Origin: a virus
Taxonomy: Duplodnaviria > Caudoviricetes
Reading direction: 5' to 3' (one strand)
Length of the DNA stretch: 60,909 bases
Virus record (IMG/VR): IMGVR_UViG_3300020044_004119
Span: 1 to 60,909 of that record
In this document: positions 58-59,900 of the stretch, piece after piece
Numbering within the stretch: the first letter of the stretch is position 1
How the letters are laid out: each line of letters starts with the position of its first letter
Position numbers and translations under genes: made by a program
Notes under the pieces: model-generated
Seen by the model: only the letters and a program-made list of their open reading frames with translations
Told to the model about the DNA's origin: nothing
Databases searched by the model: none

Positions 58-200
58 TGCATTGCTTTAATAGCAGCATCATTAATGGCAGGTGTATTAG
101 CTAGCCGTGGATCTAGCCCAAAGGTAGAGCATACATCCTGATCGGTTGTTTCGGTATCACCACGAAGGGCAAATAAATTATAATGTTTTAACTCAGGCAT
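1..200 (-). CDS. Hypothetical protein (~85 aa) spanning the junction; continues to stop at 60795
   Basis: Manual translation from ATG at 200: MPELKHYNLFALRG...RSQIKELSK*, open across the overlap. Confidence 0.75.
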   Translation of the reverse strand, partial: MPELKHYNLFALRGDTETTDQDVCSTFGLDPRLANTPAINDAAIKAMHRENYESYLERGIDSNSAL

Positions 201-619
201 GAATCTACTTTCCATTTAAGTTTAGAGACTCCAGTCATATAGTCTCCGATATATGTTTCTAAGGCACCGTGGCCCTCAGCACCTGCTTCTTCGTAGAGCT
301 TTTGGCTACACTCAAGGATCATTTTAAGATCATTACAGGTATTTGTCATCATATCTTTTAGTTTAGTCTCACCGGCAGATACATTAACAATACTGTCTGT
401 AAGATAACTCTTCAAACTAATAGGTACTTTGTAACCCATTTGGCGAAGCTGTTCGTTTAATGTGTCATGGTTCTCAAAAAGATATGTGTATACTTCACTA
501 AACAAATTGTGGTACTGAACAAAGTCGGGGCCAACAATGTTAAAGTGGTATACATGTGCGTTAAAATATGCCAGAAAATTATCGGCAATAAGATTACTTA
601 GTTTTGTTTGGCAACTCAT
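188..619 (-). CDS. dps: Dps/ferritin-like protein
   Basis: HVYHFNIVGPDFVQYH...HDTLNEQ matches the Dps HWNxxGxxFxxLH...DxxAER pattern; 143 aa. Confidence 0.85.
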   Translation of the reverse strand: MSCQTKLSNLIADNFLAYFNAHVYHFNIVGPDFVQYHNLFSEVYTYLFENHDTLNEQLRQMGYKVPISLKSYLTDSIVNVSAGETKLKDMMTNTCNDLKMILECSQKLYEEAGAEGHGALETYIGDYMTGVSKLKWKVDSCLS

Positions 620-1545: not shown

Positions 1546-1620
1546 TGGAGGGTGATAGAGGAATTGAACCTCTATTATGGGCTTAGAAGACCCAAGTATT
1601 ATCCATTATACGAATCACCC
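1546..1620 (-). tRNA. tRNA-Arg(TCT)
   Basis: GGGTGAT/ATCACCC acceptor, TGGGT-CTTCTAA-GCCCA anticodon arm, GGTTCAATTCC T-arm, encoded CCA. Confidence 0.9.
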
Positions 1621-1704: not shown

Positions 1705-1781
1705 TGGTCTCAAGAACCGGCCTCGAACCGATAACCCATGAATTATGAGTTCACTGCTCTAACCAGTTGAGCTATCTTGAG
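1705..1781 (-). tRNA. tRNA with CAT anticodon (Met or Ile2)
   Basis: CTCAAGA/TCTTGAG acceptor, GCTCAACTGGTTAGAGC D-arm, GTGAA-CTCATAA-TTCAT anticodon arm, GGTTCGAGGCC T-arm, CCA. Confidence 0.9.
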
Positions 1782-1879: not shown

Positions 1880-2164
1880 TTATTTCCTTGCTGCAGCATA
1901 ATTACAAGATGTATGACTAAATGCAATGTTATTTAGATCAAAGTACAAACTAATAGGGTTTTCAGAATCTAGCCAAGGTACTTTGTGTTCAATGGATAAA
2001 TACTCAATATCTTTAATTTGACTACCACATTGATAACACGTATCTTTACCTAATTGTTTAACAAGATCAAACATTATTTGTTTAATCAATCTATTCCTAG
2101 CAGTACCAAAAGGCATACCTAATTGGTCTTGTTTTTTCTTATCTGTATTTCTTAATTTACTCAT
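1880..2164 (-). CDS. HNH endonuclease within tRNA cluster
   Basis: CYQC...LSIEHKVPW...NIAFSHTSCN; GGAGG SD supports a start at 2164 rather than 2206. Confidence 0.8.
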   Translation of the reverse strand: MSKLRNTDKKKQDQLGMPFGTARNRLIKQIMFDLVKQLGKDTCYQCGSQIKDIEYLSIEHKVPWLDSENPISLYFDLNNIAFSHTSCNYAAARK

Positions 2165-2195
2165 ATTTAACCTCCGTTGTAATGAGTTGTTATTC

Positions 2196-2274
2196 TGGCT
2201 CCGCATCTGAGTAACGATCTCAGCTAATCATTGATTAACAGTCAAGTCCGTGCACCATGCTCGAATTCTGCGGA
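2196..2274 (-). tRNA. tRNA-Asn(GTT), non-canonical T-loop
   Basis: TCCGCA/TGCGGA acceptor plus GCCA, TTGA-CTGTTAA-TCAA anticodon arm, CTGAG-ATCGTTA-CTCAG T-arm. Confidence 0.8.
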
Positions 2275-2390: not shown

Positions 2391-3368
2391 TTACTTAGTA
2401 ATACTACCCCAACCCCAATCACCATCCATACCATTAACAGAGTACTCAGTAACACGCTTCTCAAAGAAGTTATCGTGAGATACACCATTAAGAATCCAGT
2501 CTAACCAAGTTAGTGGGTTCTCTTTTACTTTGAAGTTAGTCTTGAGGCCTAGTTGTAGTAGTCGGCGGTCAGTAATGTATCGGATATAGGTCTTGACTTC
2601 TTCCTTAGTAATACCTTCAATGGTATAGTTAGAGAAAGCTAAGTCAATGAACTGATCCTCAAGCATAACAACATCACGAGCCATCTGATAAATTTTAGAC
2701 TTAAATTCATCATTAACTACTTTAGGATGCTCGTTACAGAACTCTCGGAACAATCGTGAGTTACCTTCTACGTGTACTGTCTCATCACGGATAGACCACT
2801 CAACAATAGTGCTCATACCTTTCATCTTACCGAACCGTTGTAGGTTTAGTAGCATAACAAAGGAAGCAAACAAGGATACACCCTCATTAAGAACGGACTT
2901 AGCTAGTGATAGCGCAAGTCCACTCTGAGTAGATGAATCTGATCGAGCCATAAAGTCAATCTTGTCAGACATTTCTTTGTAGTCAAGAAACTTATGGAAC
3001 TCTTCGTCAGGTAAGCCTAGTGTATCGTTAAGTAAAGCATAAGCACGTTGATGAGTACCTTCACGACTTGCAAATGAACCTAGCATAACACGTACTTCAT
3101 TGTTCTTGAACTTAGGAATTAAGTAGTCGTAGTAGTTCTGGCCTACTTGTACATCACCCTGAGTAAACAAACGAAGGATGTTAGTGATAAAGTCTTTCTC
3201 ACTGTCATTTAGTTTGATCTTCCAATCATTAACGTCTTCAGACAGGTCAGCCTCATCCTCTGTCCAGTGAATCTCTTCATGTTTCTTGGTCATTTCTACA
3301 GCCCATTCGTGATTAAATGGTTTGTAGGTCTTAGAGAAATTTAGTAATGATGACATATTATCCTTCAC
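2391..3368 (-). CDS. nrdB: Ribonucleotide reductase class I beta subunit
   Basis: FTQGD, EGTHQRAY, EGVSLFASF, WSIRDETVH and NFFE motifs. Confidence 0.95.
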   Translation of the reverse strand: MKDNMSSLLNFSKTYKPFNHEWAVEMTKKHEEIHWTEDEADLSEDVNDWKIKLNDSEKDFITNILRLFTQGDVQVGQNYYDYLIPKFKNNEVRVMLGSFASREGTHQRAYALLNDTLGLPDEEFHKFLDYKEMSDKIDFMARSDSSTQSGLALSLAKSVLNEGVSLFASFVMLLNLQRFGKMKGMSTIVEWSIRDETVHVEGNSRLFREFCNEHPKVVNDEFKSKIYQMARDVVMLEDQFIDLAFSNYTIEGITKEEVKTYIRYITDRRLLQLGLKTNFKVKENPLTWLDWILNGVSHDNFFEKRVTEYSVNGMDGDWGWGSITK

Positions 3369-5340
3369 AAGCTTTACATTCGTTATCTTCTTCAGCTACT
3401 ACAGTTGTCAGTTCTTTGTACAATTCATTGAATCCACCAATGTATTTACCATTGAGGTATACTTGCGGTAATGATCGTACATCAGGTCGTCCTGTAACTT
3501 CTGCTGCTGTTTTACCTGTTGTTGTAATGTCAACATATACGTATTCAATTCCTTTGGAATCGCATAAAGACTTTGCCATAGCGCATTGAGGACAGTTAGG
3601 TTTGCCATAGATAATTGTTTCCTTTGATTCTTCCAATTTATTTTCCTCTACTTTTTCAGATACATTCTCTGCCCGTTGTTTAGCTTCTGTACGTAGGTAG
3701 TACAAACCTTTAAGACCTTTATCCCATGCTGCATAGTGTACTGAGTTAACATAACTACGATCAGCACCCGCTGGAAAGGCTAAGTTAACCGATTGACCTT
3801 GGCATACAAACCTTTGACGGTCAGCTGCATGTGTAACAACCCAGTGTTGATTTAGTTCAAAGAATGTTTTGAAGACATCCTTAGTTTCTTTAGATAGTTC
3901 CAGGTGTTGAATACTACCTTTGTTAGTGATAATAGAAGACCACACTGCATCAGTATTCATACCCAATGCATCAAGCTTCTTCTCAAGGTATTTATTCTTA
4001 ACCAAGAAAGAACCTGCTCGTGTACGGTGGGTATAAGCATTAGCTTTGTTAGGCTCAATACTAGGAGAGGTACTTAGTAGAATACCTGAAGAAGCGTTAG
4101 GTGCAATAGCTAGTAGGTGTGCATTGCGTTTACCACTACCAATCATATCTTGTGCTTCACCTCTGTACTCACCTAGCCAATGGGTTTCTTTAACTGCTTT
4201 CTCTTTAATCTTACCGAAGATCACAATGTTTTCTAATCGGGCTTCATCAGACTCAAAAGGAATACCTTTACGTTGTAGGTATTCATGGAATCCCATAGCG
4301 CCTAAACCAATAGATCGTTCATGAATAGCAGAGTATACTGCTCGTGATAGTGAGTCAGGAGCGTTCTCAATAAAGTATTCTAGTACATTATCAAGCATAC
4401 GTACTAAGTCTTCCACCATATGTGTGTTCTTCCAGTCATCATAGTATTCTAAGTTGACTGACGATAAACAACATACTGCAGTACGATCTTCACTTGTAGG
4501 TAGGTGAATCTCATTACAGAGATTACTTCCGTGGATCTTCAGACCTTTATCCTTAAGCTCTTGTGGCAAAGCTTCGTTTGCCGTATCAATAAAGTTTAAG
4601 TATGGCTCACCAGTACGGAAACGAGTTTCCAGAAGCTTAGCCCATACAGTACGTGCATCTAAGAACTCCCCTGTATTACCTACTTTAGGATCAATTAACT
4701 CATACTTACTGCCTGTCTTAACTGCTTCCATAAACTTATCAGAGATATTTACGGCATTATGTAGGTTAAAACATTTACGGTTAGTGTCTCCTGTTGGGAT
4801 ACGTAAGCCAATAAACTCCAGAACATCCGGGTGCTCAATGTTTAAGTATGCTGCATAAGAACCTTTGCGGGTCTTACCTTGGCGGTATGCAGTCATATCC
4901 GCATCTACAGTGTGTAGAAAAGGGATAGGGCCAGGTGCCACATCAGAGACTGAGCGTACATCTGACCAATGACCACCAACACCACCACCCATAACAGATA
5001 ACCAGCGTAGCTCTGAGCTATGGTCAATTAGTCCTTGTACTGTATCAGGCACATATGTAAGGAAACAACTAATAGGTAACCCCCTAGCTTTCTTACCATC
5101 AGCTGGTGCGTTAGATAGTACTGGTGAAGCAAACATAAACCACTTCTTAGACACATAGTCATAGAGTCGTTGTGCTAAGTCTTCATCGCGTACACCTTTG
5201 TATACGCTCCATGCCCATGCTGCTCGTGCAAATACATCCTGCGGGGACTTCTCACTTTCATTAGCATAGAAATCCATGATCATATCTACTGCATAATCTG
5301 TAAGAAGATTATCACGTACATATTCAATCTTGATATTCAT
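3358..5340 (-). CDS. nrdA: Ribonucleotide reductase class I alpha subunit with fused glutaredoxin domain
   Basis: SCF, SNLCNE, APNASS, QGQS and GLYY motifs; IYGKPNCPQC...SLPQV...IGGF Grx domain; terminal CKACEG; start at 5340 has an SD. Confidence 0.95.
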   Translation of the reverse strand: MNIKIEYVRDNLLTDYAVDMIMDFYANESEKSPQDVFARAAWAWSVYKGVRDEDLAQRLYDYVSKKWFMFASPVLSNAPADGKKARGLPISCFLTYVPDTVQGLIDHSSELRWLSVMGGGVGGHWSDVRSVSDVAPGPIPFLHTVDADMTAYRQGKTRKGSYAAYLNIEHPDVLEFIGLRIPTGDTNRKCFNLHNAVNISDKFMEAVKTGSKYELIDPKVGNTGEFLDARTVWAKLLETRFRTGEPYLNFIDTANEALPQELKDKGLKIHGSNLCNEIHLPTSEDRTAVCCLSSVNLEYYDDWKNTHMVEDLVRMLDNVLEYFIENAPDSLSRAVYSAIHERSIGLGAMGFHEYLQRKGIPFESDEARLENIVIFGKIKEKAVKETHWLGEYRGEAQDMIGSGKRNAHLLAIAPNASSGILLSTSPSIEPNKANAYTHRTRAGSFLVKNKYLEKKLDALGMNTDAVWSSIITNKGSIQHLELSKETKDVFKTFFELNQHWVVTHAADRQRFVCQGQSVNLAFPAGADRSYVNSVHYAAWDKGLKGLYYLRTEAKQRAENVSEKVEENKLEESKETIIYGKPNCPQCAMAKSLCDSKGIEYVYVDITTTGKTAAEVTGRPDVRSLPQVYLNGKYIGGFNELYKELTTVVAEEDNECKACEG

Positions 5341-15623: not shown

Positions 15624-16223
15624 TTACTTTCGTAGGTTATTACTCAAATTATAGTACATATTAGACTTAAGTGCTCTTAATTGTAACAATAACATTGTTT
15701 CTAATTCAAGCATTTCTTGATCAGTACCATATGCTAGGATGGTTCGTTTAAAGTCTTGAGGGAACTCGTTGTATGCTTCAAGGAACGATTCACCTGAGCT
15801 GACATATCCGTCATCAGCTGTTCCTTTGTGCTTTCCAATGTACTTTTTGTCTGTACTTTTGGATACCCAAAGATACACAAATGACTCACCGCTTGAGCTG
15901 TATGTGTTAGATTCGGTAGGTACTTCGACATTATATTCACCATTGATGTGGTCTTGCCAGATTTCTTTAACATACGCTACCCAAGGTTTATTTTTACTAC
16001 GCCACATTACAACAAAAGATGGTGACCCCTCATTTTCACAGAGGTATTCATACACCCATTTGTTGTATAGACCTGAGAATTCTTTATCACCTATCTTTAC
16101 TCGGATCATTGTTTTACCAGAGTCTGAGGTAAACTCTTCGACTTCATCTACAGTACATTCGTAGATATCAAAGAGTTTATCATCACCTGCAACCCATCGT
16201 TTAACTGTCTTAATTAGATTCAT
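15624..16223 (-). CDS. Two-domain protein with C-terminal GIY-YIG-like domain
   Basis: SFVYLWVSKSTDKKYIGKHKG...YVSS...LE...YYN. Confidence 0.65.
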   Translation of the reverse strand: MNLIKTVKRWVAGDDKLFDIYECTVDEVEEFTSDSGKTMIRVKIGDKEFSGLYNKWVYEYLCENEGSPSFVVMWRSKNKPWVAYVKEIWQDHINGEYNVEVPTESNTYSSSGESFVYLWVSKSTDKKYIGKHKGTADDGYVSSGESFLEAYNEFPQDFKRTILAYGTDQEMLELETMLLLQLRALKSNMYYNLSNNLRK

Positions 16224-16494
16224 TAGATAATCCTGTTAGTGTCCAAGGTTGTGGTTCAGGCATATATACCCGGACGTATTTTGTATTACGAGTTTCAAAG
16301 TTACCTTGTTTATCAGGGAATACCAGAATAGTTGAGGTACGTACATCAAAACATTTCCCCAAGCGTGGATGGTTTAATACTTCGGGTAGATGACCTACAT
16401 AGTCAATAGAGGTGTCATTATCATATCTGGGCCATTCACGGATACTGAGATTACCCATGTAGTGTACTTCTGGTTTGTTCATAGTTGTTTCCAT
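16210..16494 (-). CDS. Hypothetical protein
   Basis: HPRLG...VRTS...FETRNTKY. Confidence 0.65.
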   Translation of the reverse strand: METTMNKPEVHYMGNLSIREWPRYDNDTSIDYVGHLPEVLNHPRLGKCFDVRTSTILVFPDKQGNFETRNTKYVRVYMPEPQPWTLTGLSNESN

Positions 16495-17072
16495 GTTGCG
16501 TTCCTTGCAATAGATTCTGTTTTAGATTTGTCACGATCATCATTCATACTGCCGTGTAGTTCGCTATCTAGTAGAATAGCACAACTTGCCATAATATGAG
16601 CCAAGTGGTGTACTTTACTGTCATGAGCAAAGTCTTCACCATTATACCAGTCAGCTAAGTGACGGTGAATAGCATCATAGAATACACTAGTAGTTGTACC
16701 TGTTTCACGCCAGTTATATCGACCATATTTACTGGCACCATCAGACATAGCACCACCTAATGCAAATAGGGCTACTGGCGGTACATCAGATAGTTTAGGT
16801 TTGTTTACTGCAGCAGCTGTCTTCAGGTTTTTATCTAGTAGTCCGGGTGTGATCATTCCGTTAAATCCTTTATAGTATTCTTCTTCTTCGGCGTCAATGA
16901 TATATTGTTTAGCCATTGCATTTGACCAATGAGGTGTCATAAGGTCGTAGAAGTCCTCTTTTTCTTCTTTATTGAAGGGTTGATATCCACTATAGTCTTG
17001 ATCAGAATACTTCTCACCCTCAGTTTTTGGTGGTGAGTATTTATATTCATCAATATATTTAGGTAGAGCCAT
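16479..17072 (-). CDS. dATP/dGTP diphosphohydrolase-domain protein (DUF5664-like)
   Basis: KPKLSDVP...GASKYGRYNWR...RHL...GED...HLAH. Confidence 0.8.
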   Translation of the reverse strand: MALPKYIDEYKYSPPKTEGEKYSDQDYSGYQPFNKEEKEDFYDLMTPHWSNAMAKQYIIDAEEEEYYKGFNGMITPGLLDKNLKTAAAVNKPKLSDVPPVALFALGGAMSDGASKYGRYNWRETGTTTSVFYDAIHRHLADWYNGEDFAHDSKVHHLAHIMASCAILLDSELHGSMNDDRDKSKTESIARNATWKQL

Positions 17073-19239: not shown

Positions 19240-20037
19240 TTATTTGACATTCACCATACCTTTAAAGTCCATTGGGACAACAATAGTATGCACACGACCT
19301 GCTGCAATACCTTCTGCAATTTTCATTTGAGCTTGTGCTTGCATATAAGCAATAGACTGACCCGAGTTAGAGCTTAGTGCAGCCATACGTTCAGATTCTT
19401 TCTTGGCAATCTCAACTTCAGTTTGTTTTACTTTAAGTTCATTTTGAGCTTTAACGTATTGAGTAGCAGAGGCTAGGATATCAGCATTAGGTAGGATATT
19501 ACGAACTTGTACAACAGTTAGCTGGATAGCGGTATCTAGCTTTTCATGTTTAAGTTGTTCAGTAACGGTTTGTTGAATTTCAGCTTCAATCTTGGCACGA
19601 TTATCGGCTACTTCAAGGGATTTATATTGCCGAACAACTTTGTAGGCAGCATTGTTGACTAGTGTACTCATGTAGTTGTGCATCAGGTAGATATCACCTT
19701 TGCTCTCTGAGTGGAATGAACGACTCTTGGTAGAATATAGTTCAGCAACAGAGGTTGAGCTTAGACCATAAACAACTGTGATATCAAAGTCAGCTAATGG
19801 ACTGTTATCTGCAGTCATTGGTGTTTTGTTTTCTAGTGTTACTGCAATATCTTTTACTGGAAATGTCAGGATAGAACCAACAAGTGTTTGGTAGAAGCCA
19901 CCGGGTTGTAGCTCAGTGCCTTCAATTTGTTTAGATGCATTCATACGAACACCTACTTCACCAGTTTCAATACGGGTACAGGCTTGTAGGGAAATTAGAG
20001 CAGCAATAATAGCGGTTAGTTTGAAGAATTTAGTCAT
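19240..20037 (-). CDS. SPFH/band-7 (prohibitin) domain lipoprotein
   Basis: Signal peptide with LQAC lipobox, IETGEVGV, C-terminal coiled coil. Confidence 0.85.
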   Translation of the reverse strand: MTKFFKLTAIIAALISLQACTRIETGEVGVRMNASKQIEGTELQPGGFYQTLVGSILTFPVKDIAVTLENKTPMTADNSPLADFDITVVYGLSSTSVAELYSTKSRSFHSESKGDIYLMHNYMSTLVNNAAYKVVRQYKSLEVADNRAKIEAEIQQTVTEQLKHEKLDTAIQLTVVQVRNILPNADILASATQYVKAQNELKVKQTEVEIAKKESERMAALSSNSGQSIAYMQAQAQMKIAEGIAAGRVHTIVVPMDFKGMVNVK

Positions 20038-20284: not shown

Positions 20285-20449
20285 TTAGAAAAGAAGTGTG
20301 ATAAGAAATAAGACAATAGCAGAGAAGAACATTACAACAGTTGCTTTAGCGGCAAACTGGAGTTGTTTGAATGTAGCGTTAGCAGTTACATTGTACAGTA
20401 CAGAGAGTGTAATGCATGTAATAATAAATACAATAAATAGCTTAATCAT
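20285..20449 (-). CDS. Small two-helix membrane protein (54 aa)
   Basis: Manual ORF MIKLFIVLFITC...LFLITLLF*. Confidence 0.5.
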   Translation of the reverse strand: MIKLFIVFIITCITLSVLYNVTANATFKQLQFAAKATVVMFFSAIVLFLITLLF

Positions 20450-21482
20450 TTTTTAGTAACCATTTGTTGGAGATAGCTTTGAAAGACTTTGATGGATCCG
20501 ACAAGTTTTTGAATACAAGCCCTTCACGATGTGCTTTGGGATTAAGTACCGACTGACCTTCTGCAAAAGTTAGTAGTTCGGATACTGTGGTTTTACCTGT
20601 GGTGAGGTATGGTGCAAAGATTGGTGTATGTTTTAGACCAAGAGACTTACATAAAGAAATCCTTTGTTCAGGTGAGTAGTACTGTTGTGATGGGATATCA
20701 AAGATATCAAACACATAGTACTCAGGTTTAGTTAAGTTGTATGAGTTACCTTGGATACTTGGCCCAATTAGCTCTCCTTGTAGTGCTACTTGTAAGTTAG
20801 TAGTTGCTAACTTTGCAAGAATACATTCGGTATGGGCTGTCTTAACAAAGGCATTATCAAGATCATCTAGTTTAAGCTCATAGTTACGACTGCAGACACC
20901 ATTACGATAACCATTTTCCCATAGATCATCAGCAATACGGAAAACAGTCATTGAAGAGCCATCAAGTTTCTCAGTTACTTCCCACATTTGTTCACCCAGA
21001 GACTCAATATTACGAAGGTAATTCTGGATACGTTCTTGGTCAGTTTTTGGGATGAATGATGGGAAATTACCAGCCATTTTACCGGCTAGTTGTGCTGGAA
21101 TCTCACGTTCCCATTTGAGGATGTTTAAATATTCAGTTACATCAGTACCTTCAACTGGGTTTTCAAAGTCATGTGTTAGTACTGATTCTCTTGGTAACAC
21201 TAAGCCCTGAGAGATTTGACCTTTAAGTTTAATAGTACGTAGACGTTCACCTTTAATACCTTTATACTCACGAGGTTCTTTACCTTTACTTAAGAATGGT
21301 GCTAGTTCTGTGGGAATCCATGAGTCAATTTCAAAGTAGACACATAGATCACCTACATTGAATTCACCCTTTTTAATAACGACTTCCCAACCATCGATAA
21401 CAGCTACTTCAATTAAGTCAGCATTTGCAATAGGTTTTAGTTGTTGGATAACTCGGATAGTGGCTAGTTTACGATCAGACAT
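20442..21482 (-). CDS. RNA ligase, DRB0094 family
   Basis: N-terminal RKLATI...NADLIE...YFEIDS module; EKLDGSS, QGELIG, FDI, EGLVFK, FKAISNKWL. Confidence 0.9.
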   Translation of the reverse strand: MSDRKLATIRVIQQLKPIANADLIEVAVIDGWEVVIKKGEFNVGDLCVYFEIDSWIPTELAPFLSKGKEPREYKGIKGERLRTIKLKGQISQGLVLPRESVLTHDFENPVEGTDVTEYLNILKWEREIPAQLAGKMAGNFPSFIPKTDQERIQNYLRNIESLGEQMWEVTEKLDGSSMTVFRIADDLWENGYRNGVCSRNYELKLDDLDNAFVKTAHTECILAKLATTNLQVALQGELIGPSIQGNSYNLTKPEYYVFDIFDIPSQQYYSPEQRISLCKSLGLKHTPIFAPYLTTGKTTVSELLTFAEGQSVLNPKAHREGLVFKNLSDPSKSFKAISNKWLLKND

Positions 21483-27039: not shown

Positions 27040-27126
27040 ATGAATACCCTTGAGTTATGGTTGGTTAGTAGGCGAAAGCACCTACCCATAGAACACTCTG
27101 AAAAATGTTCTACAGGTATCTACCTA

Positions 27127-27582
27127 TTAGATACGTTGAAGCTCTTGTTTCTTAATCAAATAAGCAGCATGAGCTTGTTCTTGGGTATCATAAGTACCAA
27201 GATACATTTGCTTGTTATTTATCTTAATAACAGCAATCCATCTACCACTACGAGCACGTTTACACCCGATCTTTCCGGGTTCTTTATTGTGTGTATTGAT
27301 AGAAGCAGTAACATCCCTCAAGTTATCTAAACGATTATCATCTCTAATACGGTTAATATGATCAATATCGTTGATTGGGTAACTACCATACACATACAAC
27401 CATATTAACCTATGCAGTTGATACTGTTTACCGTTAATCCTTAGCGATCTATAACCATTAAATTCAGTACAACCAGCCACTGCACCCTTAACCGCTTTAG
27501 GGCTAAGAGTGTAGCGATTAGTTAGTAAACCAGTTAATGGGTTATAATAATACCTTTCTTTAAGTAATTCTTGTGTTATCAT
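27127..27582 (-). CDS. HNH endonuclease with AP2-like C-terminal domain
   Basis: HRLIW...IDHINRIRDDNRLDNLR...N; RWIAVI...YLGTYDTQEQAHAAY. Confidence 0.9.
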   Translation of the reverse strand: MITQELLKERYYYNPLTGLLTNRYTLSPKAVKGAVAGCTEFNGYRSLRINGKQYQLHRLIWLYVYGSYPINDIDHINRIRDDNRLDNLRDVTASINTHNKEPGKIGCKRARSGRWIAVIKINNKQMYLGTYDTQEQAHAAYLIKKQELQRI

Positions 27583-27591
27583 TTATTCCTT

Positions 27592-27921
27592 TCAAATAGA
27601 TTCAACAATGTTATAAAACCAAACGTTACAATCGTTACCACCGGCAGCAATAAAACAAACCTTAGCACCTTTGTCATAAGCACTTTGAAGACGTTTAGTT
27701 AATGACTTGACATCAGCATCGCTATTAAAGCGATCGATTCGGGCTTGACGCTTACGGTTATCAGAGCCTGTTGCCTCAATAGACCGTGTTGTTTCATTGA
27801 AGCTTAACTCAACAATAGTCACAGGCAAACTCTTACGGTCTTCGCCCAATGGATTGTTGGTAGAGAAAGCAACATTGGCTTTAGGAGAGACTTTGAAAGA
27901 AGGAGTGAAAGCTTTAGTCAT
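27592..27921 (-). CDS. Early hypothetical protein
   Basis: 109-aa ORF with AAGGA SD. Confidence 0.7.
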   Translation of the reverse strand: MTKAFTPSFKVSPKANVAFSTNNPLGEDRKSLPVTIVELSFNETTRSIEATGSDNRKRQARIDRFNSDADVKSLTKRLQSAYDKGAKVCFIAAGGNDCNVWFYNIVESI

Positions 27922-28129: not shown

Positions 28130-28276
28130 TTAATCTTCAAACACAAATGCACAATAAGAACAGATCATACTCAGACATGCTAACAAGAACAGAGGCCAAG
28201 CATTGAATACAGTAGCAGCAGCTACACACATCAGTGCTGACAGAAACAACAGACCAGTAACAAACAAGCGGAACAT
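28130..28276 (-). CDS. Small early membrane protein (48 aa)
   Basis: Manual ORF MFRLFVTGLLFLSALMCV...; GGAG SD; two hydrophobic helices. Confidence 0.55.
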   Translation of the reverse strand: MFRLFVTGLLFLSALMCVAAATVFNAWPLFLLACLSMICSYCAFVFED

Positions 28277-28337: not shown

Positions 28338-28550
28338 TCAATCAACAATACGAACATTAGCATCCAAGTCGTGGCGGTAGTATGTATATACAAGGGTAGT
28401 GGTTTCGGAGGTATACACGCGAGTCTCCAGGGCAGTATGTTCAACAGGAAACAAAGAGCCATAGCGCGAGTCAACAAAGGAACGCATGGTATCACGACCA
28501 CTAACGAACTCGGCACGAGCAGCGGAACGAGGAACAAAACGAAGAGACAT
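28338..28550 (-). CDS. Probable first early gene (70 aa)
   Basis: MSLRFVPRSAARAEF...; first ATG after the A-less leader, with a GGGG SD-like element. Confidence 0.5.
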   Translation of the reverse strand: MSLRFVPRSAARAEFVSGRDTMRSFVDSRYGSLFPVEHTALETRVYTSETTTLVYTYYRHDLDANVRIVD

Positions 28551-28712
28551 AACAAACCCCAAAGAGCGCAAACAAGGAAAGCCGACAGCACCGCGCCAAG
28601 CACAGCCGACAGGAGGGAGGGAGCAGGACGAGCACGCCCGACCAGCACGCAGCACCCGCCACAGAAGCGAGGGGGCCACGGAACCAGAACAGGGGAACCC
28701 AAACAAACACCC
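28551..28712. other. 162-nt tract with no T on the plus strand
   Basis: Base-by-base inspection; flanking T at 28550 and 28713. Confidence 0.9.
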
Positions 28713-28806
28713 TGATTCTTTGACACACAAAGAAAACTCCCCAAATAAAACCTAGGGTACCCACAAAACACCTCCCAAAAAATTCTCGCAGATAAAATAC
28801 CCCAAT

Positions 28807-28862
28807 TATACTCTCCCAAAAACAGTAATCCAAAGTATACTCTTCCAATAAGTAATCCAAAG
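28807..28862. repeat. Two imperfect tandem ~28-bp repeats
   Basis: TATACTCTCCCAAAAACAGTAATCCAAAG / TATACTCTTCCAATAAGTAATCCAAAG. Confidence 0.8.
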
Positions 28863-28881
28863 TAGTCGGTTCCTAATAGGG
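28862..28881 (+). promoter_or_regulatory. Putative phage RNAP promoter at the head of the late arm
   Basis: GTAGTCGGTTCCTAATAGGG. Confidence 0.75.
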
Positions 28882-28906
28882 AATATATTTTCTACTAAGG
28901 ACACAA

Positions 28907-30550
28907 GTGGCAACAACAAACAAACAAAAGCTGGAAGCTCTACGGGAGTTACAGAAAAGACAGAAATTAGCTCAGTATCAAAATAACTTTGAGCTATTTG
29001 CAAAAGAACAGATCAAAATCTTACCGAAAGATTCTTCAAAAGGTTTCAAATATTTTGAGTTCAATGAAGCTCAACATATTGTAAATAATAAGATTGAAGA
29101 ACAATTAGCTGAGACTGGAAGGGTACGTGCTATTATTCTTAAAGCCCGACAGATGGGTTTAAGTACGTATACCACAGCTAGGGTTTTCTGGAAGAGCTAT
29201 TTTAACGCCTACAACAAGTCAGTTGTTATGGCGCATGATGCAGCCACCTCTGATGCTTTGTTTAGTATGTCCAGAAATACTATCTCAAACATGGATCCAA
29301 CATTCAGACCTGCATTTAAGAAGTCTAACGCCAAAGAGATTATGTTTGAACATAATGATTCAGGATACAGACTATACACTGCGGGTGCTCCTGAAGCGGG
29401 TAGAGGTACAACACCAACTATTGCTCATCTATCAGAAGTAGCCTTCTGGACACATGATGAGAAAATCTTGGCTGGCTTATTCCAAGGTATCTCTCAGGCT
29501 AAAGGTACTGAGGTTATTTTAGAGAGTACCGCTAACGGTGTAGGTAATGCTTTTCACAGATTATGGAAGGGTGCTGTAGCCGGGGAAAACGAATACATTG
29601 CTATCTTCGTACCATGGTTCCTGATGCCTGAATATCGCAGAGATATTCCATCAAAGATAACATTTGAAAGAACACCTGAAGAAGAAGTATTAGTCACAAG
29701 GTTTAACCTAGACAACGAACAATTATATTGGAGACGATTAAAGATAGCTGAGGGAGGCTTAGATAAATTTAAGCAAGAGTATCCGGCTACCCCTGAAGAA
29801 GCATTTATTGTTTCGGGTTCTAACGTATTTAATATTGAGAAACTATCTGCTCTTATTCCACAACCAATACTAAAACAAATGGAGTTTAGTTTTGAAGCTA
29901 TGATGATGGAAGAGAAACCAAGGGGTTCTATTGAGATTTTTAAATTTCCTACCTTTGAAGATTCTTTTGTTATTGGTGCTGACGTAGCACTAGGGGTTGG
30001 TAAGGACTATTCCTCTGCTGTTGTGATGAATGCCAAAAGAGAAGTTTGTGCTGTATACCGCAATAACACAATTGATCCATCACAGTTTGGTGATCTATTA
30101 TTTTATTTGGGAAGATACTATAATAACGCACTACTAGCTGTTGAATCTAATTCTATGGGAATAGCAACACTCAACCGACTAACTCAAATGGGTTATGTTA
30201 ACATGTACTACCAAACTAAGATGGCTAATGTCTCTAAAGAAGAAGGTACACGTATTGGTTGGAGAACTACATCCAGCTCTAAACCTGCTATTATCGGTTT
30301 TCTTAAGAATGCTATTGAACAAGAGGATATTTGGATTCCATCAAGAGTAATTATTGGTGAGCTGATGAATTATGTAGCTGACGATAACGGTAAAACCAAT
30401 GCCATAATTGGGCATAATGATGATACTGTTATTGCTCTTGCAATAGCACTAGAAGTGGTACGTACTCACGGTGATAAACTAACAACTAACAATGTACCTT
30501 TTACTCAACGTATGGGAACATTCCAACAAGTAGAAAGTACATGGTTATGA
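28907..30550 (+). CDS. terL: Terminase large subunit
   Basis: LKARQMGLST, GRG...HLSEVAFW, ESTANG, IGADVA, VESN, HNDDTVIALA. Confidence 0.95.
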   Translation: MATTNKQKLEALRELQKRQKLAQYQNNFELFAKEQIKILPKDSSKGFKYFEFNEAQHIVNNKIEEQLAETGRVRAIILKARQMGLSTYTTARVFWKSYFNAYNKSVVMAHDAATSDALFSMSRNTISNMDPTFRPAFKKSNAKEIMFEHNDSGYRLYTAGAPEAGRGTTPTIAHLSEVAFWTHDEKILAGLFQGISQAKGTEVILESTANGVGNAFHRLWKGAVAGENEYIAIFVPWFLMPEYRRDIPSKITFERTPEEEVLVTRFNLDNEQLYWRRLKIAEGGLDKFKQEYPATPEEAFIVSGSNVFNIEKLSALIPQPILKQMEFSFEAMMMEEKPRGSIEIFKFPTFEDSFVIGADVALGVGKDYSSAVVMNAKREVCAVYRNNTIDPSQFGDLLFYLGRYYNNALLAVESNSMGIATLNRLTQMGYVNMYYQTKMANVSKEEGTRIGWRTTSSSKPAIIGFLKNAIEQEDIWIPSRVIIGELMNYVADDNGKTNAIIGHNDDTVIALAIALEVVRTHGDKLTTNNVPFTQRMGTFQQVESTWL

Positions 30551-44563: not shown

Positions 44564-45247
44564 TTGAAACGCAATACCAGACAACGTAAAGAGAAGTTCG
44601 TTCAAGCTGAACGCTCATTTTACATCCAGCCTAAAACTGAAAATCAAAGATTACTCTTAGATGCTATTCAAGAATTTCCTATCACAGTAACACTAGGTGC
44701 TGCAGGTGTAGGTAAAACTTACTGTGCTGCAAGTAAGGTTGCTCAATTGTACTTGACAGGTCAATATGATCACATTATTCTTACAAGAAGTAACGTACCT
44801 ACAGGACGTTCTCTAGGTTTTTTTCCTGGAAATGTCAATGAGAAGCTAACACCTTGGTTGTTACCACTTATCTCTGTATTAGAGAAACAGTTGGGTAAAC
44901 CTAAGTATGAATATATTTTAGAAAAAGATATTCTCCAACTACAACCACTAGAGACTATTCGTGGTCGTTCTTTTGAAAATAGTTTAGTACTGGTAGATGA
45001 ATGTCAGAACCTGACAATTGAAGAACTAAAAGCTATCACAACCCGACTAGGTGAGAATTCTAAAATGATTCTCATGGGTGATGCTACTCAATCAGACATT
45101 GATAACGGTTCTAATATTATCAAATTCTGTAAGATCTGTGAGAAGCATAACATTGAGATTCCTATTGTGAGATTCACAGTAGATGATATTGTGCGTTCAG
45201 ATATTGTCGGTCAGTTAGTAAGAGCGTTTATTAAAGAGAAAATCTAA
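44564..45247 (+). CDS. phoH: PhoH-like ATPase
   Basis: GAAGVGKT, LGFFPG, RGRSF, DECQN, TRLG, GD..QSD, DIVRS. Confidence 0.93.
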   Translation: MKRNTRQRKEKFVQAERSFYIQPKTENQRLLLDAIQEFPITVTLGAAGVGKTYCAASKVAQLYLTGQYDHIILTRSNVPTGRSLGFFPGNVNEKLTPWLLPLISVLEKQLGKPKYEYILEKDILQLQPLETIRGRSFENSLVLVDECQNLTIEELKAITTRLGENSKMILMGDATQSDIDNGSNIIKFCKICEKHNIEIPIVRFTVDDIVRSDIVGQLVRAFIKEKI

Positions 45248-56949: not shown

Positions 56950-59900
56950 ATGGCAACATCAACTAAAGTCGCACCTTTAGGTAGCCCAAAATCTGGTCTT
57001 TCATTAGATCAAATGTTAGCATTGCAAGGGCAAACTACAGCGGCTATGGGCACTGTACCATCGCCTGTAGAAGACCCAAGAGCTACTGTACAAGCTACAG
57101 TAGAGCAGTATATGCCAAATCCAATGGCTATTCCACAACCAACAGCACCTTCAGAGGAAGTACTTGCAGCAACACCTACTATCCGGACGTATGAGGACAT
57201 TGCTCGTGCATCTGGATCCCAGTTTGGTGCTCGTCCAGTAGAGGAACCTGTATTAGATACTCAGGGTGACCCTGTTGTAGACCCTATGACTGGTATGCCT
57301 CAGATGAGAGCTATTACACCCGAAGACTATGCCAACCAGCAAGCTATTGAAAAAGCTTCTCAGCTAAACACAATGGAAGCTATGGAGGGTATGTCTCAAG
57401 ACCCTTATGGTCAAGCTAAAGATGCTACTTCTGCATTGTTGTCTGGTAAACAAGACTCAATGTTTAATGCTTCTGCAAGAGACATTTCTAAATCTTCTAT
57501 GGATGAAGATGAGATAGATCGTTATTCAGATAAAACTGCTACAGCACTAGCCACTATTGTATCTCAAACTAATGATGCCTTATTTACTGCTAATGCTCGT
57601 ATTAAAAGTGAAATGAAAGGTGCGGACGGTAGCTCTGTTCTTATTGCTGCTGGTCTTAAAGCTGCTGCTGAAGATGGCTTTAGCTCCCCAGAAGAATTAG
57701 CTGATTTAGGCTTAGTTTTTGGTGTTGCCTTAGCTAAGTCTGCCTCACAAGGTAAAGTAGAAAAGGGTGAGAAAGAAGGTACAGGTAAAGTAATGTCGGA
57801 GTCAGGTGCAACTATTGATGATGCTACCTATATGCTTGACTTTATTAACTCTGTTAAACACTTTGCAACCAACGGTTTAAACCGTATGGGCAAAAAGGTG
57901 TCACCTAAAGCTATTAATGAAATGGCTAAGGCTGTAGCTATGGACGCTATTGACCGTGGTGCTGTAAAAGTATTTCATATTGGTGACCGACCTGTAGTTC
58001 AAATGAGTCCTGCTATTAAAGATATTGCTCGTGACTTACAAATTGCCTCAGAAGCTTTGGTAGGCGACTACGGTCGTAGACGTTCTTCTTCTACACCTAA
58101 CCGTAGTGGTACCTCCTTTGCTGCTAACAGACCACAACTAACTAAACGTTCTATTAAGAAAGGTGATTTAGTTACTACTGCTGCAGAAGCTACTAAGGAC
58201 ATTCTTGGTTCAGTTGGTTTAATGTTTGGTGCTAAGGATATTCAATATAAAGAAATTGAATTAGGCTTAATTATGAGTCCTGAATACCTAGTTAAAGATG
58301 ATCAGGGTAAAGTTAAATTTAGTAACCATTGGGCGGCTAAGCGTTTAGGTGTAAGTGAAAAAGATTTCAATGCAGCTAAAATGAAAACAAAGCCTGAGAA
58401 AGACTTTAATCCTACAGACCCAGATGCTGTCAGACGCTTTGAAGCACAACAAGAATATCAAGCAACAGAGGTTATTAATAACAAACTAAAAACTATTGAG
58501 TTTGATATCAAGAATGCTAAGAATTCTTCCGGTATTCGCTACTCAGAATGGGTACACAGCTTATCTAACCAACGATTCTTCCCTAACAGCTTTGACGTAG
58601 ACTACATGGGTTCCAAGAATGCTACTCGTGATATGTTAGGTTTTGCTGTTAAAGAGTATGTAACTTCAGATATGTTGTTTGACCCACGTACAGTAGATAA
58701 CCTCAAGCAAAAAGCTATTGGTATTCTACATATGTCAGGTGACAAACAGAATGATGCTTTAGAAAAGTTAACTCCTTCTGAGCGAGGTGCTATTGGCACT
58801 ATGCTTAATGCGGTAATTGGTTATTACTCTGCTGTTGAAGGTTCTAATCCTGATATTGTTAAGGAGTCACCTTCTAGTATTGTTTCTAAATATACCGTAT
58901 CTATTGGTGATAAGCTAGCTGAAGCTGGTAGAGACTATAATGCTTTCCTTGCTGACCCAATGAATGCTTCTGATAACATTCAGGAGCTATTAGCAGGTAT
59001 GGAAAAAGGTGAATCTATGGGTTCTAAAAACCTGTGGGATGATATGTTTAATTTAAAGGCTGCTTCGCTTAAACCTGAAACACAACGTAAGCATATCCCA
59101 TTAACTCACCATGCTTTTGACGATGGTAATCAGAACGGTATCTTCTTACAGGCACTATTCTTTGGTAGTCCTGATAATGCTATTCGTCTGGGTACCTTTA
59201 ACCCTTCATTAGATGACATGCGTGAGTACGCAATGAATACCATGATTGCTAATCTGGAAGATAACTTAAAAGATAATGCTGATGCTAACGATGCTTTCAG
59301 AAATTTCTTTAAGGCTATTAAAGATAAGCAGGGTAAAGCTGCAATGGCAAAAGACTTCTTCAAGAAGCCACTAATGCAAAATGCTTATGGTAAAGATGCT
59401 AGTATGTTTGGTGATATGATGGTTGAGGTCTTAACTAACGTATACCCAGATGAAGCACAACAATACTTGTTGAACAGCGGTGTTTATAACCGTGATATTG
59501 ATAAAGCATCTACGGCTTTAAGTGATGCGCTAGAGAGTACTCTCAGAGAAGTTATTAATTCTAAATCAACTCAAGTATTAAAAGATATTGGTCGATACAC
59601 TGCTATTCTTAACCAAACAGTTATGATGCCAGGTATTACTGGTGACACTTATGTATTTACACCTGTAGAGGTTATGCCTATTAACAAAGCAAATGATAGT
59701 GGAGAAATTCTACCTATCAAACTTAATGATGGCACAACTGTAATGGTCAAATACAAAGCGTATGAGTCAGATACATTTGTTAATAGTGAAGGTCAAGAAG
59801 TAACTGTAGAGTCAAGTGCTATGGGGTATAGTCCTGCAGCAAGTAAAGGTGCTCAGTTAATTTATAACCAAAGAACTAAGAAGTACGATGTGTTTAACAA

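What the first reader, a model, noticed from the sequence alone, without database searches (positions are those of the whole stretch)
28551..28712. 162 nt without a single T on one strand at the probable entry end
Seen: the plus strand has no T from 28551 to 28712, and only one T (that of the ATG) from 28511 to 28712. The tract is GC-rich in an AT-rich genome. On the minus strand it is an A-less leader ending exactly at the first ATG, with GGGG in the SD position. Inference, several options: (a) it cannot contain any palindromic restriction site with A/T, protecting first-injected DNA; (b) the template strand has no T for T-T dimers or thymidine-targeting toxins; (c) the injected RNAP could transcribe it without ATP during genome pull-in; (d) the RNA evades A-specific mRNA interferases.
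Basis: partly seen in the sequence, partly recalled or inferred. Interest (0 to 1): 0.78.

Follow-up and report, generated by a model that had tools for sequence, protein, structure and literature searches.

The report
Adenine-free leader of phage early operon
The tract is the untranslated start of this phage's first-expressed operon, written without adenine on the message strand; related phages keep this rule, sometimes through whole genes, but its purpose is untested.

Summary
Window 28551-28712 has no T on the + strand (A59 C56 G47), against about 1e-20 expected by chance.

On the minus strand it is an adenine-free leader. It runs from a conserved box (28712-28732) through a GGGG ribosome-binding site to the ATG at 28550. 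This opens the leftward early arm of a circularly assembled 60.9-kb podovirus with its own T7-type RNA polymerase, related to roseophage CRP-7.

The rule is conserved. 59 of 62 freshwater relatives, some marine relatives and CRP-7 have a T-poor zone of 47-681 nt at the same place. In several relatives real genes are recoded almost without A.

Averaged over 45 loci, sense-strand A jumps down at the box to about 4% and climbs back to about 35% over 2 kb.

The avoidance does not depend on sequence context. ACA, -10-like motifs, GATC and A/T palindromes are not specially depleted.

My best reading (0.33) is a transcript-level shield. The main rival (0.25) is restriction-proofing of first-entering DNA.

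The genome ends and the transcription start are unmapped. I found no published description.

The parts
28551..28712 (-). Adenine-free 5' leader (U/G/C only) of the leftward early operon; the reported tract
   Evidence: 0 T on +; homologous leaders in 27 distinct relatives, with A = 79 of 3598 bases despite a median pairwise identity of 0.64. Lengths differ by non-multiples of 3 (162, 155, 146 nt), so it has no conserved reading frame.
28557..28560 (-). GGGG Shine-Dalgarno. Relatives that contain A have GGAG or GGAGG at this position.
   Evidence: Sequence; alignment A1.
28338..28550 (-). First early ORF (70 aa, ATG at 28548-28550). Its first 13 codons are A-free and the whole ORF is 16.4% A.
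   Evidence: L006 encodes a homologue. No PHROG or Pfam hit.
28712..28732 (-). Conserved box CTTTGTGTGTCAAAGAATCAG, where A-exclusion begins abruptly. It is a candidate -10/transcription start or processing site; function unknown.
   Evidence: Unique in the window. Conserved in relatives. A drops from 21.6% to 3.9% across it.
28755..28762 (.). Conserved palindrome GGGTACCC in the G-poor (+ strand) regulatory segment
   Evidence: The + strand at 28701-28850 has the lowest G content of the window, 6.7%.
28795..28873 (-). Three direct repeats. Read on the minus strand they give TTGGAT-N17-TATAAT (-35 at 28833-28828, -10 at 28810-28805) and TTGGAT-N15-TATACT (-10 at 28839-28834). These are candidate tandem host promoters.
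   Evidence: Repeats. The hexamers are my own reading. They do not reach the threshold of the promoter scan, so this is inference.
28863..28883 (+). T7-class phage promoter TAGTCGGTTCCTAATAGGGAA, which drives the terminase/late arm away from the tract
   Evidence: 11 matches to the core pattern against 1.1 expected. The best-placed ones are at 2364, 5363, 14299, 23518 and 25026 (-) and 44525 (+). None faces leftward into the tract.
28907..30550 (+). Large terminase, first gene of the rightward structural arm
   Evidence: Terminase_6N/6C.
28130..28276 (-). Small membrane-type ORF (48 aa) in the transitional A-poor zone (15% A). Its L004 homologue, inside a longer A-free zone, has 5.6% A.
27592..27921 (-). 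Conserved 109-aa early protein with a predicted OB fold and normal composition (27.6% A). In some relatives a recoded, nearly A-free paralogue is the first or second gene.

Best explanation
WHAT IT IS (shown, about 0.9). The tract is the untranslated 5' leader of the single leftward early operon of a CRP-7-like podovirus. The phage carries its own T7-type RNA polymerase, whose gene lies at the far end of that arm, as in phiKMV. The tract is the core of a lineage-wide zone in which adenine is purged from the sense strand. The purge starts sharply at a conserved box. It runs through the leader, the Shine-Dalgarno (GGAG becomes GGGG) and sometimes the start codon (ATG becomes GTG). In many relatives it continues through whole recoded genes. 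It then relaxes gradually over 1-2 kb. Selection acts on each A whatever its neighbours.

HOW IT WORKS (inferred, about 0.33). The constraint acts while the region is transcribed, or on the RNA itself. No phage promoter faces the tract, so host RNA polymerase reads a template with no T. That polymerase can therefore extend the first few hundred nucleotides with GTP, CTP and UTP alone. The resulting RNA offers no adenosine to any activity that depends on adenosine or ATP, such as cleavage, deamination or nucleotide depletion. The graded relaxation suggests a hazard confined to the first tens of seconds of infection, ending once the first early proteins act. The hazard itself is not identified.
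For: Anatomy: the gene arms diverge at 28.6-28.9 kb. Phage promoters lie elsewhere and none faces the tract.

Conservation: 59 of 62 freshwater loci with upstream DNA have a T-poor zone of at least 47 nt, and 43 of 62 have at least 100 nt (near-duplicate loci are included). CRP-7 has runs of 224, 168 and 104 nt just before gp01. Five marine contigs have runs of 113-226 nt.

Selection rather than mutation bias: T in A-containing relatives is replaced by A, C or G in A-free ones. In 27 leaders, 134 of 174 columns vary with at least 226 changes, yet A makes up 2.2%.

Geometry of a transcription unit: A is 28.9% and 21.6% in the two 100-nt bins upstream of the box. Downstream it is 3.9, 4.3, 9.3, 13.8, 15.6, 20.5, 22.1 and 26.5%, reaching about 35% by 2 kb (45 loci). 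The zone is unique in the genome.

Real genes are recoded. L011 versus L009 has 34 codons differing synonymously and 18 non-synonymously, with 40 of 62 differences at third positions. The remaining A's sit at codon position 2 (11 of 13 in L011). The same gene families hold less A when nearer the box.

Context-free avoidance: ACA O/E is 2.2 and 1.6, TANNNT 0.91-0.97, GATC about 1.

T7, phiKMV and N4 have no base-free run above 55 nt.
Against: No adenosine- or ATP-directed hazard that is present at time zero is known for the hosts.

ATP is normally the most abundant NTP (recalled), and translation would still need it.

In this window only the leader and 13 codons are A-free, and the first gene has 16% A. 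A shield for the first protein's message is therefore incomplete here.

The transcription start is unmapped. The best promoter-like hexamers lie 90-120 nt upstream of the box. A contig from an RNA library runs up to 28863 (weak, since contigs cannot show starts). If transcription starts there, the first 90-150 nt of the RNA do contain A.

The leader still has G-N-U-U-U stretches, so it is not obviously proof against RNase E (my reading of the sequence against a recalled consensus).

The G-poor + strand of the regulatory segment is not explained by an RNA-level reading.
Confidence: 0.33

Rival explanations
1. DNA-level shield. If the genome ends lie at the divergence point and DNA enters stepwise by transcription (as in T7 or N4; recalled), this is the first DNA exposed to constitutive host nucleases. 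A duplex with no T on one strand cannot contain any palindromic site with an A/T pair. It also cannot contain any site that needs an adenine on both strands. By my recalled reasoning that covers all Type I systems, most adenine-methylation Type II systems, and inverted Type III pairs. This would be a generic answer to hypervariable restriction specificities. The constraint would relax as anti-restriction proteins accumulate.
For: The arms diverge here and the phage has three giant proteins at the end of the structural arm, placed like T7 internal virion proteins.

Seven marine contigs end at the same place, 3.8-4.1 kb upstream of TerL, at or within about 270 nt of the G-poor promoter-like segment; L108 and L131 start inside it. 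Four freshwater contigs end 2-20 nt before the TerL start, against a background of about 1 per 100 nt.

The regulatory segment, which cannot lose A/T, is instead nearly G-free on the + strand (6.7%, the lowest in the window). Many relatives have G-free runs of 40-67 nt there.

GGCC, CCGG and CGCG are depleted in the tracts (O/E 0.27, 0.27, 0.45).

In CRP-7 the first gene of normal composition after the zone encodes an acidic protein (my count).
Against: The ends are unmapped. TerL shows no similarity to the T7, phiKMV or N4 terminases. Contigs from three other runs bridge the point.

A/T palindromes sit at expectation once A is present (0.99).

GC palindrome depletion continues 1-3 kb downstream, so it is not specific to the tract.

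GCGC (O/E 1.35) and GGTACC are conserved in the earliest segment.

A non-coding spacer of 160 nt or more only lengthens exposure. In this window the zone ends before the first gene.

T7, the paradigm of stepwise entry, has no such tract.
Confidence: 0.25
2. Thymine avoidance in the template strand. The hazard would be chemistry directed at T, or at a replacement for T, in phage DNA. Candidates are uracil or hypermodified T attacked by glycosylases, ADP-ribosylation of T, and UV dimers. Each of these would block the polymerase on the template strand only.
For: The avoidance is strictly strand-specific and independent of context. The phage has a dCMP deaminase and a MazG-like pyrophosphohydrolase, and no thymidylate synthase was detected.
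Against: The rest of the 28-kb early arm has a T-rich template. The promoter segment has T on both strands.

UV test: A's flanked by pyrimidines on the sense strand, whose template T would be isolated, are not spared.

I found no gene for a base-modification pathway. The PF18909 domain protein comes without PurZ.

Many standard metagenomes assemble these phages.
Confidence: 0.07
3. Replication or packaging element. Possibilities are an R-loop or transcription-primed origin next to a promoter, a zone on the + strand that is free of primase sites, or part of a terminal structure or pac site beside the terminase gene.
For: The tract lies between divergent arms and next to TerL in the freshwater clade. 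Repeats resembling iterons (GTCTnTGGG-type) lie just upstream. A T-free strand cannot hold the T7-type primase site GTC (recalled).
Against: The zone runs through translated genes that are under purifying selection.

G-runs in the RNA are not enriched: + strand CCCC has O/E 0.84.

In CRP-7 and marine relatives the zone lies 0.9-3.2 kb from TerL.

The cumulative GC-skew minimum is near 17 kb, not here.
Confidence: 0.08
4. An ordinary protein-coding region, or an artefact. The tract would be a low-complexity hydrophobic ORF (all six frames are open) or an assembly error.
For: Three minus-strand ORFs of 119-167 aa span it. One, 28501-28764, has a GGAGG-GTG start.
Against: Any A-free or T-free sequence lacks stop codons, so open frames carry no information.

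Leader lengths differ by non-multiples of 3. The upstream start is not conserved. Synonymous third positions also avoid A.

The tract recurs in dozens of independent assemblies.
Confidence: 0.02

Closest known systems
Roseobacter phage CRP-7 (MK613349) and the CRP-7-type group (PMC6918029; I read passages only)
   Same: Closest named relative: TerL is 58.4% identical. It has the same two-arm architecture with DNAP, exonuclease, primase and a T7-like RNAP at the end of the early arm. It has the same A-free zone (224-nt leader, then a nearly A-free 128-aa ORF) directly before gp01.
   Different: In CRP-7 about 3 kb of small genes separate the zone from TerL. The passages I read do not mention the tract. 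The annotated gp72 lies on the opposite, stop-free strand and is probably spurious.
T7 / phiKMV early regions (tandem host promoters, leader, first gene 0.3/ocr; transcription-driven genome entry, recalled)
   Same: A single-subunit RNAP phage with T7-class promoters. The RNAP gene lies after the DNA-metabolism genes, as in phiKMV. There are candidate tandem host promoters ahead of an untranslated leader.
   Different: T7 and phiKMV have all genes on one strand, and TerL here shows no similarity to their terminases. Their leaders have normal composition. Their longest base-free runs are 40 and 55 nt.
Restriction-site avoidance in phage genomes, and engineered ACA-less mRNAs that resist MazF (both recalled)
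   Same: Sequence is purged so that a nuclease finds no target.
   Different: Those cases remove particular words. Here one whole letter is removed regardless of context, in a position-dependent gradient. ACA is not avoided.
Three-letter leaders noted earlier in this scan (e1-5924299 and e1-6128020: G-less leaders in crAss-like phages; e1-5977829: C-free tracts after early promoters in a T4-like phage)
   Same: One nucleotide is missing from the message strand just downstream of early promoters. In the T4-like case the first ~200 nt of nearby genes are also depleted.
   Different: The missing letter and the phage family differ. G-less and C-less RNAs fold weakly, whereas this A-less RNA folds normally. 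These are unchecked AI notes that I did not test.
boxA / nut and put antitermination elements in early leaders (lambda, HK022, rrn; recalled)
   Same: Cis-acting RNA in the early leader. In the window and a subset of relatives the conserved GCGCUCUUUGG before the SD resembles boxA (CGCUCUU(U)A).
   Different: Only GCGCU is invariant, and the rest varies among relatives. There is no boxB-like hairpin and no Rfam match. A-exclusion is not a feature of these elements.

Membership tests
T7-like (Autographiviridae-type) early region | Single-subunit RNA polymerase and its conserved promoters | tested here: met
   PF00940 at 1.3e-56; PHROG 414. The promoter core occurs 11 times against 1.1 expected.
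T7-like (Autographiviridae-type) early region | All genes on one strand; T7-type terminase (PF22530) | tested here: not met
   Two divergent arms. TerL hits Terminase_6N/6C only. T7 and phiKMV TerL hit PF22530. BLASTP E = 0.17 and 9.6.
N4-like early system (injected giant vRNAP, hairpin promoters) | Giant virion RNA polymerase gene | tested here: not met
   The three largest proteins (860, 1393 and 1264 aa) have no PHROG or Pfam hit. The only RNAP is a 735-aa T7-type enzyme. Remote homology was not excluded by structure prediction.
Restriction-site avoidance | Palindromic words depleted beyond composition, specifically in the tract | tested here: inconclusive
   GGCC, CCGG and CGCG have O/E 0.27-0.45, but GCGC is 1.35 and non-palindromic GGCG is 0.19. 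Similar depletion continues downstream, and A/T palindromes sit at 0.99. The loci are related, so they are not independent.
MazF-resistant (ACA-less) message | ACA depleted relative to composition | tested here: not met
   ACA O/E is 2.20, 1.58 and 1.62 in the 0-300, 300-800 and 800-1500 nt zones.
Sigma70 -10-like pause or spurious-promoter avoidance | TANNNT depleted in the transitional zone | tested here: not met
   O/E is 0.91-0.97 in every zone, including far downstream.
Rho-utilisation (rut) leader | C-rich, G-poor, unstructured RNA | tested here: not met
   RNA C is 30% and G 28% in the first 100 nt. The window leader has G56 against C47. Folding is ordinary (MFE -80.7 kcal/mol, z = -0.95).
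Known structured RNA family | Rfam covariance-model match or strong conserved structure | tested here: not met
   No Rfam match at E <= 1. RNAalifold finds one 8-pair hairpin at -6 kcal/mol, with 6 of 8 pairs showing compensatory changes.
Aminoadenine (Z) genome | PurZ together with a dATP-removing enzyme | tested here: not met
   A PF18909 domain protein is present at 16479-17072 (5e-25). No ORF of PurZ size or annotation exists. Base composition of virion DNA cannot be tested here.
R-loop / transcription-primed origin (T4 oriF, ColE1 type) | Promoter followed by a tract giving G-cluster-rich RNA | tested here: not met
   + strand CCCC (RNA GGGG) has O/E 0.84, while + strand GGGG is 2.19.

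The most novel reading that the evidence does not exclude
A widespread clade of aquatic podoviruses writes its immediate-early programme (leader, ribosome-binding site and, in many members, whole recoded genes) in a three-letter alphabet without adenine. The first RNA could then be made, and could work, while adenine nucleotides or adenosines are under attack or unavailable. Candidate attacks are ATP depletion or deamination defences and a context-free A-specific nuclease. The G-less and C-less early leaders noted in crAss-like and T4-like phages would be the same strategy against other nucleotide-directed hazards. Together they would form a general, undescribed class of counter-defence encoded in composition rather than in a protein.
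Probability: 0.2. Interest if true: 0.9.

Novelty: categorically new. Interest (0 to 1): 0.8.

Why it matters
A gradient of single-nucleotide exclusion, tied to position and strong enough to recode proteins and change the Shine-Dalgarno, implies a strong and so far unnamed selective force. That force acts on the first nucleic acid a phage exposes or makes.

Identifying it would reveal one of two things: a new kind of host hazard directed at adenine or ATP in the first seconds of infection, or a generic trick that makes leading DNA immune to adenine-dependent restriction.

The system is testable, because CRP-7 and its Roseobacter host are in culture (PMC6918029).

It also has practical consequences for annotation. 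Base-free tracts are open in all six frames and attract spurious gene calls (CRP-7 gp72). They also appear to break metagenome assemblies.

Tried and rejected
Raw-read terminus and transcription-start mapping was not possible. Only Logan contigs of related strains were offered: shares were at most 0.26 and none of the 24 listed runs was kept as raw reads. An RNA-library contig covering 28548-28863 and another starting at 28862 come from a single study, so they show neither a start nor an end.

Near-identical DNA in the phage collection: none.

PHROGs and Pfam on the first ORFs, the A-free proteins and the three giant proteins: no hits.

Homologues of the 109-aa early protein: 62 were found, all within this clade. 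None carries an informative name, and one bears an implausible 'beta-lactamase class A' label.

Leader RNA as a structured element: z = -0.95, weak consensus fold, no Rfam match.

Ideas rejected on the data:
- Deamination or mutation bias. Replacements go to all three bases, and C is enriched rather than lost.
- Avoidance of MazF/ACA, -10-like motifs or GATC.
- Avoidance of UV dimers.
- An R-loop origin.
- A coding leader.
- A Z-genome.

The sigma70 scan tool found no promoter between 28713 and 28906 at its threshold. The hexamers I name are my own weaker reading.

Terminase class as a guide to packaging mode was uninformative, because T7 TerL also touches Terminase_6N.

Literature: searches found no description of adenine- or thymine-free tracts in phage early regions. 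I did not look at supplements.

The earlier-findings look-ups by place and by sequence were empty.

Full report
OBSERVATION. The + strand of window 28551-28712 has no T (A59 C56 G47). In 28511-28712 the only T is at 28550. The next-longest T-free runs are 39 nt (adjacent) and 36 nt elsewhere. Runs free of A, C or G reach 35, 45 and 60 nt. With 30.2% T, the chance expectation for such a run anywhere in the window is about 2e-20. The tract is 63.6% GC in a 39.8% GC genome.

CONTEXT. The window is a whole virus record of 60,909 nt. Its first and last 57 nt are identical, so it is a circular assembly.

PHROGs and Pfam show a podovirus built from two arms. The minus-strand arm runs from about 28.55 kb down to position 1. 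It starts with small ORFs and continues with ssDNA-binding protein, RNA ligase, DNA ligase, dCMP deaminase, DNA polymerase A, exonuclease, primase-helicase, a 735-aa T7-type RNA polymerase and ribonucleotide reductase. The plus-strand arm runs from TerL (28907) through portal, scaffold, capsid and fibres to three giant proteins ending at 60744. The arms diverge at the tract and converge at a bidirectional terminator near 60.8 kb.

A T7-class promoter, TAGTCGGTTCCTAATAGGGAA, sits at 28863-28883 before TerL. Its core recurs 11 times against 1.1 expected, on both arms, but never facing leftward into the tract. I therefore infer that host polymerase transcribes the tract. The RNA polymerase gene lies at the end of the DNA-metabolism block, as in phiKMV.

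The closest named phage is Roseobacter phage CRP-7, with TerL 58.4% identical.

WHAT THE TRACT IS. Read on the minus strand, it starts right after a conserved box, CTTTGTGTGTCAAAGAATCAG (28712-28732), which is unique in the window. It ends with GGGG (28557-28560), six nucleotides, and the ATG of a 70-aa ORF. It is not a conserved reading frame. Homologous leaders measure 162, 155, 146 and 103-141 nt, and the A-run inside the box varies in length. Any A-free or T-free sequence is open in all frames, so the long ORFs that span it carry no information.

CONSERVATION. The TerL search matched 264 IMG/VR stretches, of which 80 loci were kept. I dropped 18 loci that had little or no upstream DNA. In the remaining 62, 59 have a zone of at least 47 nt with at most one T per 30 nt upstream of TerL, 43 have at least 100 nt, and the longest are 633, 649 and 681 nt. 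L073, L074 and L078 essentially lack it, with zones of 27-39 nt. These counts include near-identical loci.

CRP-7 has A-free runs of 224, 168 and 104 nt on the sense strand of its early arm, just before gp01 across the record ends. Among marine CRP-7-type contigs, five (L087, L098, L116, L119, L123) have T-free runs of 113-226 nt, 0.9-3.2 kb upstream of TerL. Others have only 25-42 nt, or end before the place.

T7, phiKMV and the first 50 kb of N4 have no base-free run longer than 55 nt.

SELECTION ON THE LETTER ITSELF. In 27 distinct leaders (median pairwise identity 0.64), 134 of 174 columns vary with at least 226 changes. Yet A makes up 79 of 3598 bases. Where relatives that contain A have GGAG or GGAGG, the A-free ones have GGGG, and several use GTG starts. 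T's on the + strand of A-containing relatives are replaced by A, C or G in A-free ones. C rises rather than falls. Deamination bias is therefore not the cause.

In many relatives the zone covers real genes. L004 has a 178-aa ORF with 1.3% A, and L011 a 166-aa ORF with 2.8%. L018, L079 and CRP-7 are similar. One such gene is a recoded relative of the conserved 109-aa early protein of normal composition (window 27592-27921). BLASTP gives E = 2e-3 and 3e-4 with matching positions, and the joint alignment has invariant R58 and F102.

This recoded gene is under protein-level constraint. L011 versus L009 has 34 codons differing synonymously and 18 non-synonymously, with 40 of 62 differences at third positions. 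Its remaining A's sit at codon position 2 (11 of 13 in L011), that is in Asp, Glu and Tyr codons. Other gene families hold less A when they lie nearer the box: 13.1% at about 490 nt from the TerL start against 26.7% at 1300 nt, and 5.6% against 15%.

THE GRADIENT. I anchored 45 loci on the box. Mean sense-strand A is 28.9% and 21.6% in the two 100-nt bins upstream. Downstream it is 3.9, 4.3, 9.3, 13.8, 15.6, 20.5, 22.1 and 26.5%, reaching about 35% by 2 kb. T, G and C are all raised in the zone.

WHAT THE AVOIDANCE IS NOT. Given composition, several motifs are not specially depleted:
- ACA is over-represented (O/E 2.2, 1.6, 1.6).
- TANNNT sits at 0.91-0.97 in every zone.
- GATC is about 1.

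A/T-containing 4-mer palindromes have O/E 0.99 in the first 300 nt. GGCC, CCGG and CGCG are depleted in the tracts (0.27, 0.27, 0.45). But GCGC is enriched (1.35), non-palindromic GGCG is lowest (0.19), and the same depletion continues 1-3 kb downstream.

A's whose template T would have only purine neighbours are not spared, which argues against UV dimers. The A's that survive in the first 300 nt sit mostly in TTATG, GGAG(G/T), TGAC and GTACC contexts, that is starts, ribosome-binding sites and stops.

The leader RNA is not unusually stable (z = -0.95). It has one small conserved hairpin and matches no Rfam family.

ENDS AND STARTS. I could not map either. Only contigs of related strains were available. 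Contigs from X1, X2 and X3 bridge 28862. In the one RNA library, one contig runs 28548-28863 (depth 31) and another starts at 28862 (depth 223). This is a weak hint of divergent transcription, and it comes from a single study.

Contig ends of relatives do cluster. Seven marine contigs stop 3.8-4.1 kb upstream of TerL, at or within about 270 nt of the G-poor promoter-like segment (L108 and L131 start inside it). Four freshwater contigs stop 2-20 nt before TerL, against about 1 per 100 nt elsewhere. This fits either physical ends or a hypervariable stretch that is hard to assemble.

TerL belongs to Pfam Terminase_6N/6C and shows no similarity to the T7, phiKMV or N4 terminases. T7 TerL also touches Terminase_6N, so this says nothing about packaging mode.

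The best host-promoter-like hexamers (TTGGAT-N17-TATAAT, with -10 at 28810-28805) lie in three direct repeats 90-120 nt upstream of the box. They do not reach the scan tool's threshold.

The regulatory segment 28701-28850 has the lowest G content of the window on the + strand, 6.7%.

MECHANISM. Shown: this is the leader of the early operon, and a position-dependent, context-free purge of sense-strand adenine has been maintained by selection across a clade spanning marine and freshwater phages.

Inferred, my commitment at 0.33: the constraint acts during transcription or on the RNA. The template has no T, so the transcript can be extended without ATP. The RNA has no adenosine for any adenosine-directed activity. 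The hazard fades within the first 1-2 kb, as early proteins act.

Weaknesses of this reading: no such hazard at time zero is known; in this window the zone stops 13 codons into the first gene; and the RNA may start upstream of the box.

The main rival (0.25) is a DNA-level shield for the first-entering DNA. A duplex with no T on one strand cannot hold any palindromic A/T site, nor any site needing adenine on both strands. It is attractive because restriction is constitutive and early proteins neutralise it. It would also explain the G-poor promoter segment. But it needs unproven fixed ends and stepwise entry. It gives no reason to keep a non-coding spacer of 160 nt or more. And site-avoidance signals specific to the tract are absent.

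Minor rivals are template-T chemistry (0.07), a replication or packaging element (0.08), and a coding region or artefact (0.02).

COMPARISON WITH WHAT IS KNOWN. The element works like a T7/phiKMV-style early leader in its position. It is not a member of that family by genome layout or terminase, and those phages lack the tract.

It resembles restriction-site avoidance and engineered ACA-less messages in logic. It differs in removing a whole letter, in a gradient.

Earlier notes of this scan describe G-less and C-less tracts after early promoters in crAss-like and T4-like phages. They suggest a wider class of 'three-letter leaders', but I did not test them.

My literature searches and the CRP-7 paper (PMC6918029, passages only) hold no description of such tracts. 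I did not examine supplements.

What I say about T7 and N4 entry, Type I methylation, boxA, RNase E preference and nucleotide-directed defences is recalled, not taken from a call.

VERDICT. The feature is real, conserved and strongly selected. It is undescribed as far as I could search, and its mechanism is open. Interest 0.8.

Noticed in passing
L011:2984-3484(-), L009:3288-3779(-), L004:3056-3592(-), L018 about 3018-3656(-), L001/L082 junction (CRP-7): Whole genes written almost without adenine (1.3-2.8% A), using essentially F, L, S, C, W, P, R, V, A and G plus a few D, E, Y and K. One is a recoded paralogue of the conserved 109-aa early protein and is under purifying selection. Another family shares the N-terminus MSFS(S)FASSLPV and the C-terminus GYFCAVS between freshwater phages and CRP-7.
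   Followed up: partly
window 27592-27921 (-): A conserved early protein found only in this phage clade (62 homologues, none informatively named). The AlphaFold model (pLDDT 81.8) is an OB fold. Its nearest PDB folds are B-subunits of AB5 toxins (TM about 0.58, 13% identity). That is a generic OB-fold likeness, not evidence of toxin function. It may bind nucleic acid.
   Followed up: partly
window 16479-17072 (-): A protein with the Pfam PF18909 domain (dATP/dGTP diphosphohydrolase, N-terminal; E = 5e-25). This domain is known from aminoadenine-genome phages, but no PurZ-like gene is present. phiKMV gp25 carries the same annotation. Its role here is unknown.
   Followed up: partly
L001:141-836 (CRP-7 gp72, record 57271-57966): The annotated 'hypothetical protein' gp72 lies on the T-free strand, opposite the A-free early ORF. 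It is probably a spurious call, made possible because base-free DNA has no stop codons in any frame.
   Followed up: partly
L105, L108, L111, L113, L124, L129, L131 (locus position 1); L017, L036, L050, L051: Independent metagenome contigs of relatives end at the same spot beside the divergence point. Seven marine contigs end 3.8-4.1 kb upstream of TerL. Four freshwater contigs end 2-20 nt before TerL. This means either physical genome ends or an assembly-breaking hypervariable stretch.
   Followed up: partly
window 28701-28850 (+), and the same segment in relatives: The regulatory segment next to the tract is nearly G-free on the + strand (6.7%; G-free runs of 40-67 nt in relatives). It holds repeated GTCTnTGGG-type motifs and a conserved GGGTACCC palindrome. 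Together with the T-free leader, the first ~350 bp on the early side of the late promoter use only about three letters at any point.
   Followed up: partly
window 27127-27582 (-), 1880-2206 (-), 15624-16223 (-): HNH/homing endonuclease genes. The one at 27127-27582 is absent from several related strains: contigs skip about 27045-27731.
   Followed up: no
window 1546-1620 and 1705-1781 (-); L073:3906-3981: tRNA-Arg(TCT) and tRNA-Met(CAT) lie at the far end of the early arm. CRP-7 is also reported to carry tRNA-Arg(TCT). Relative L073, which lacks the tract, has a tRNA-Asn(GTT) between the divergence point and TerL.
   Followed up: no
window 188-619 (-), 19240-20037 (-), 20442-21482 (-), 44564-45247 (+): Auxiliary genes: a ferritin/Dps-like protein, an SPFH/Band-7 protein, an RNA ligase and a PhoH-like ATPase. 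The RNA ligase hints at warfare over RNA or tRNA repair with the host.
   Followed up: no
window 1-57 and 60853-60909; about 60770-60815: The 57-nt identical ends are an assembly overlap, classed as 'direct terminal repeats' in the record, and lie near the end of the early arm, just outside the last called gene. A strong bidirectional hairpin terminator sits where the two arms converge.
   Followed up: no
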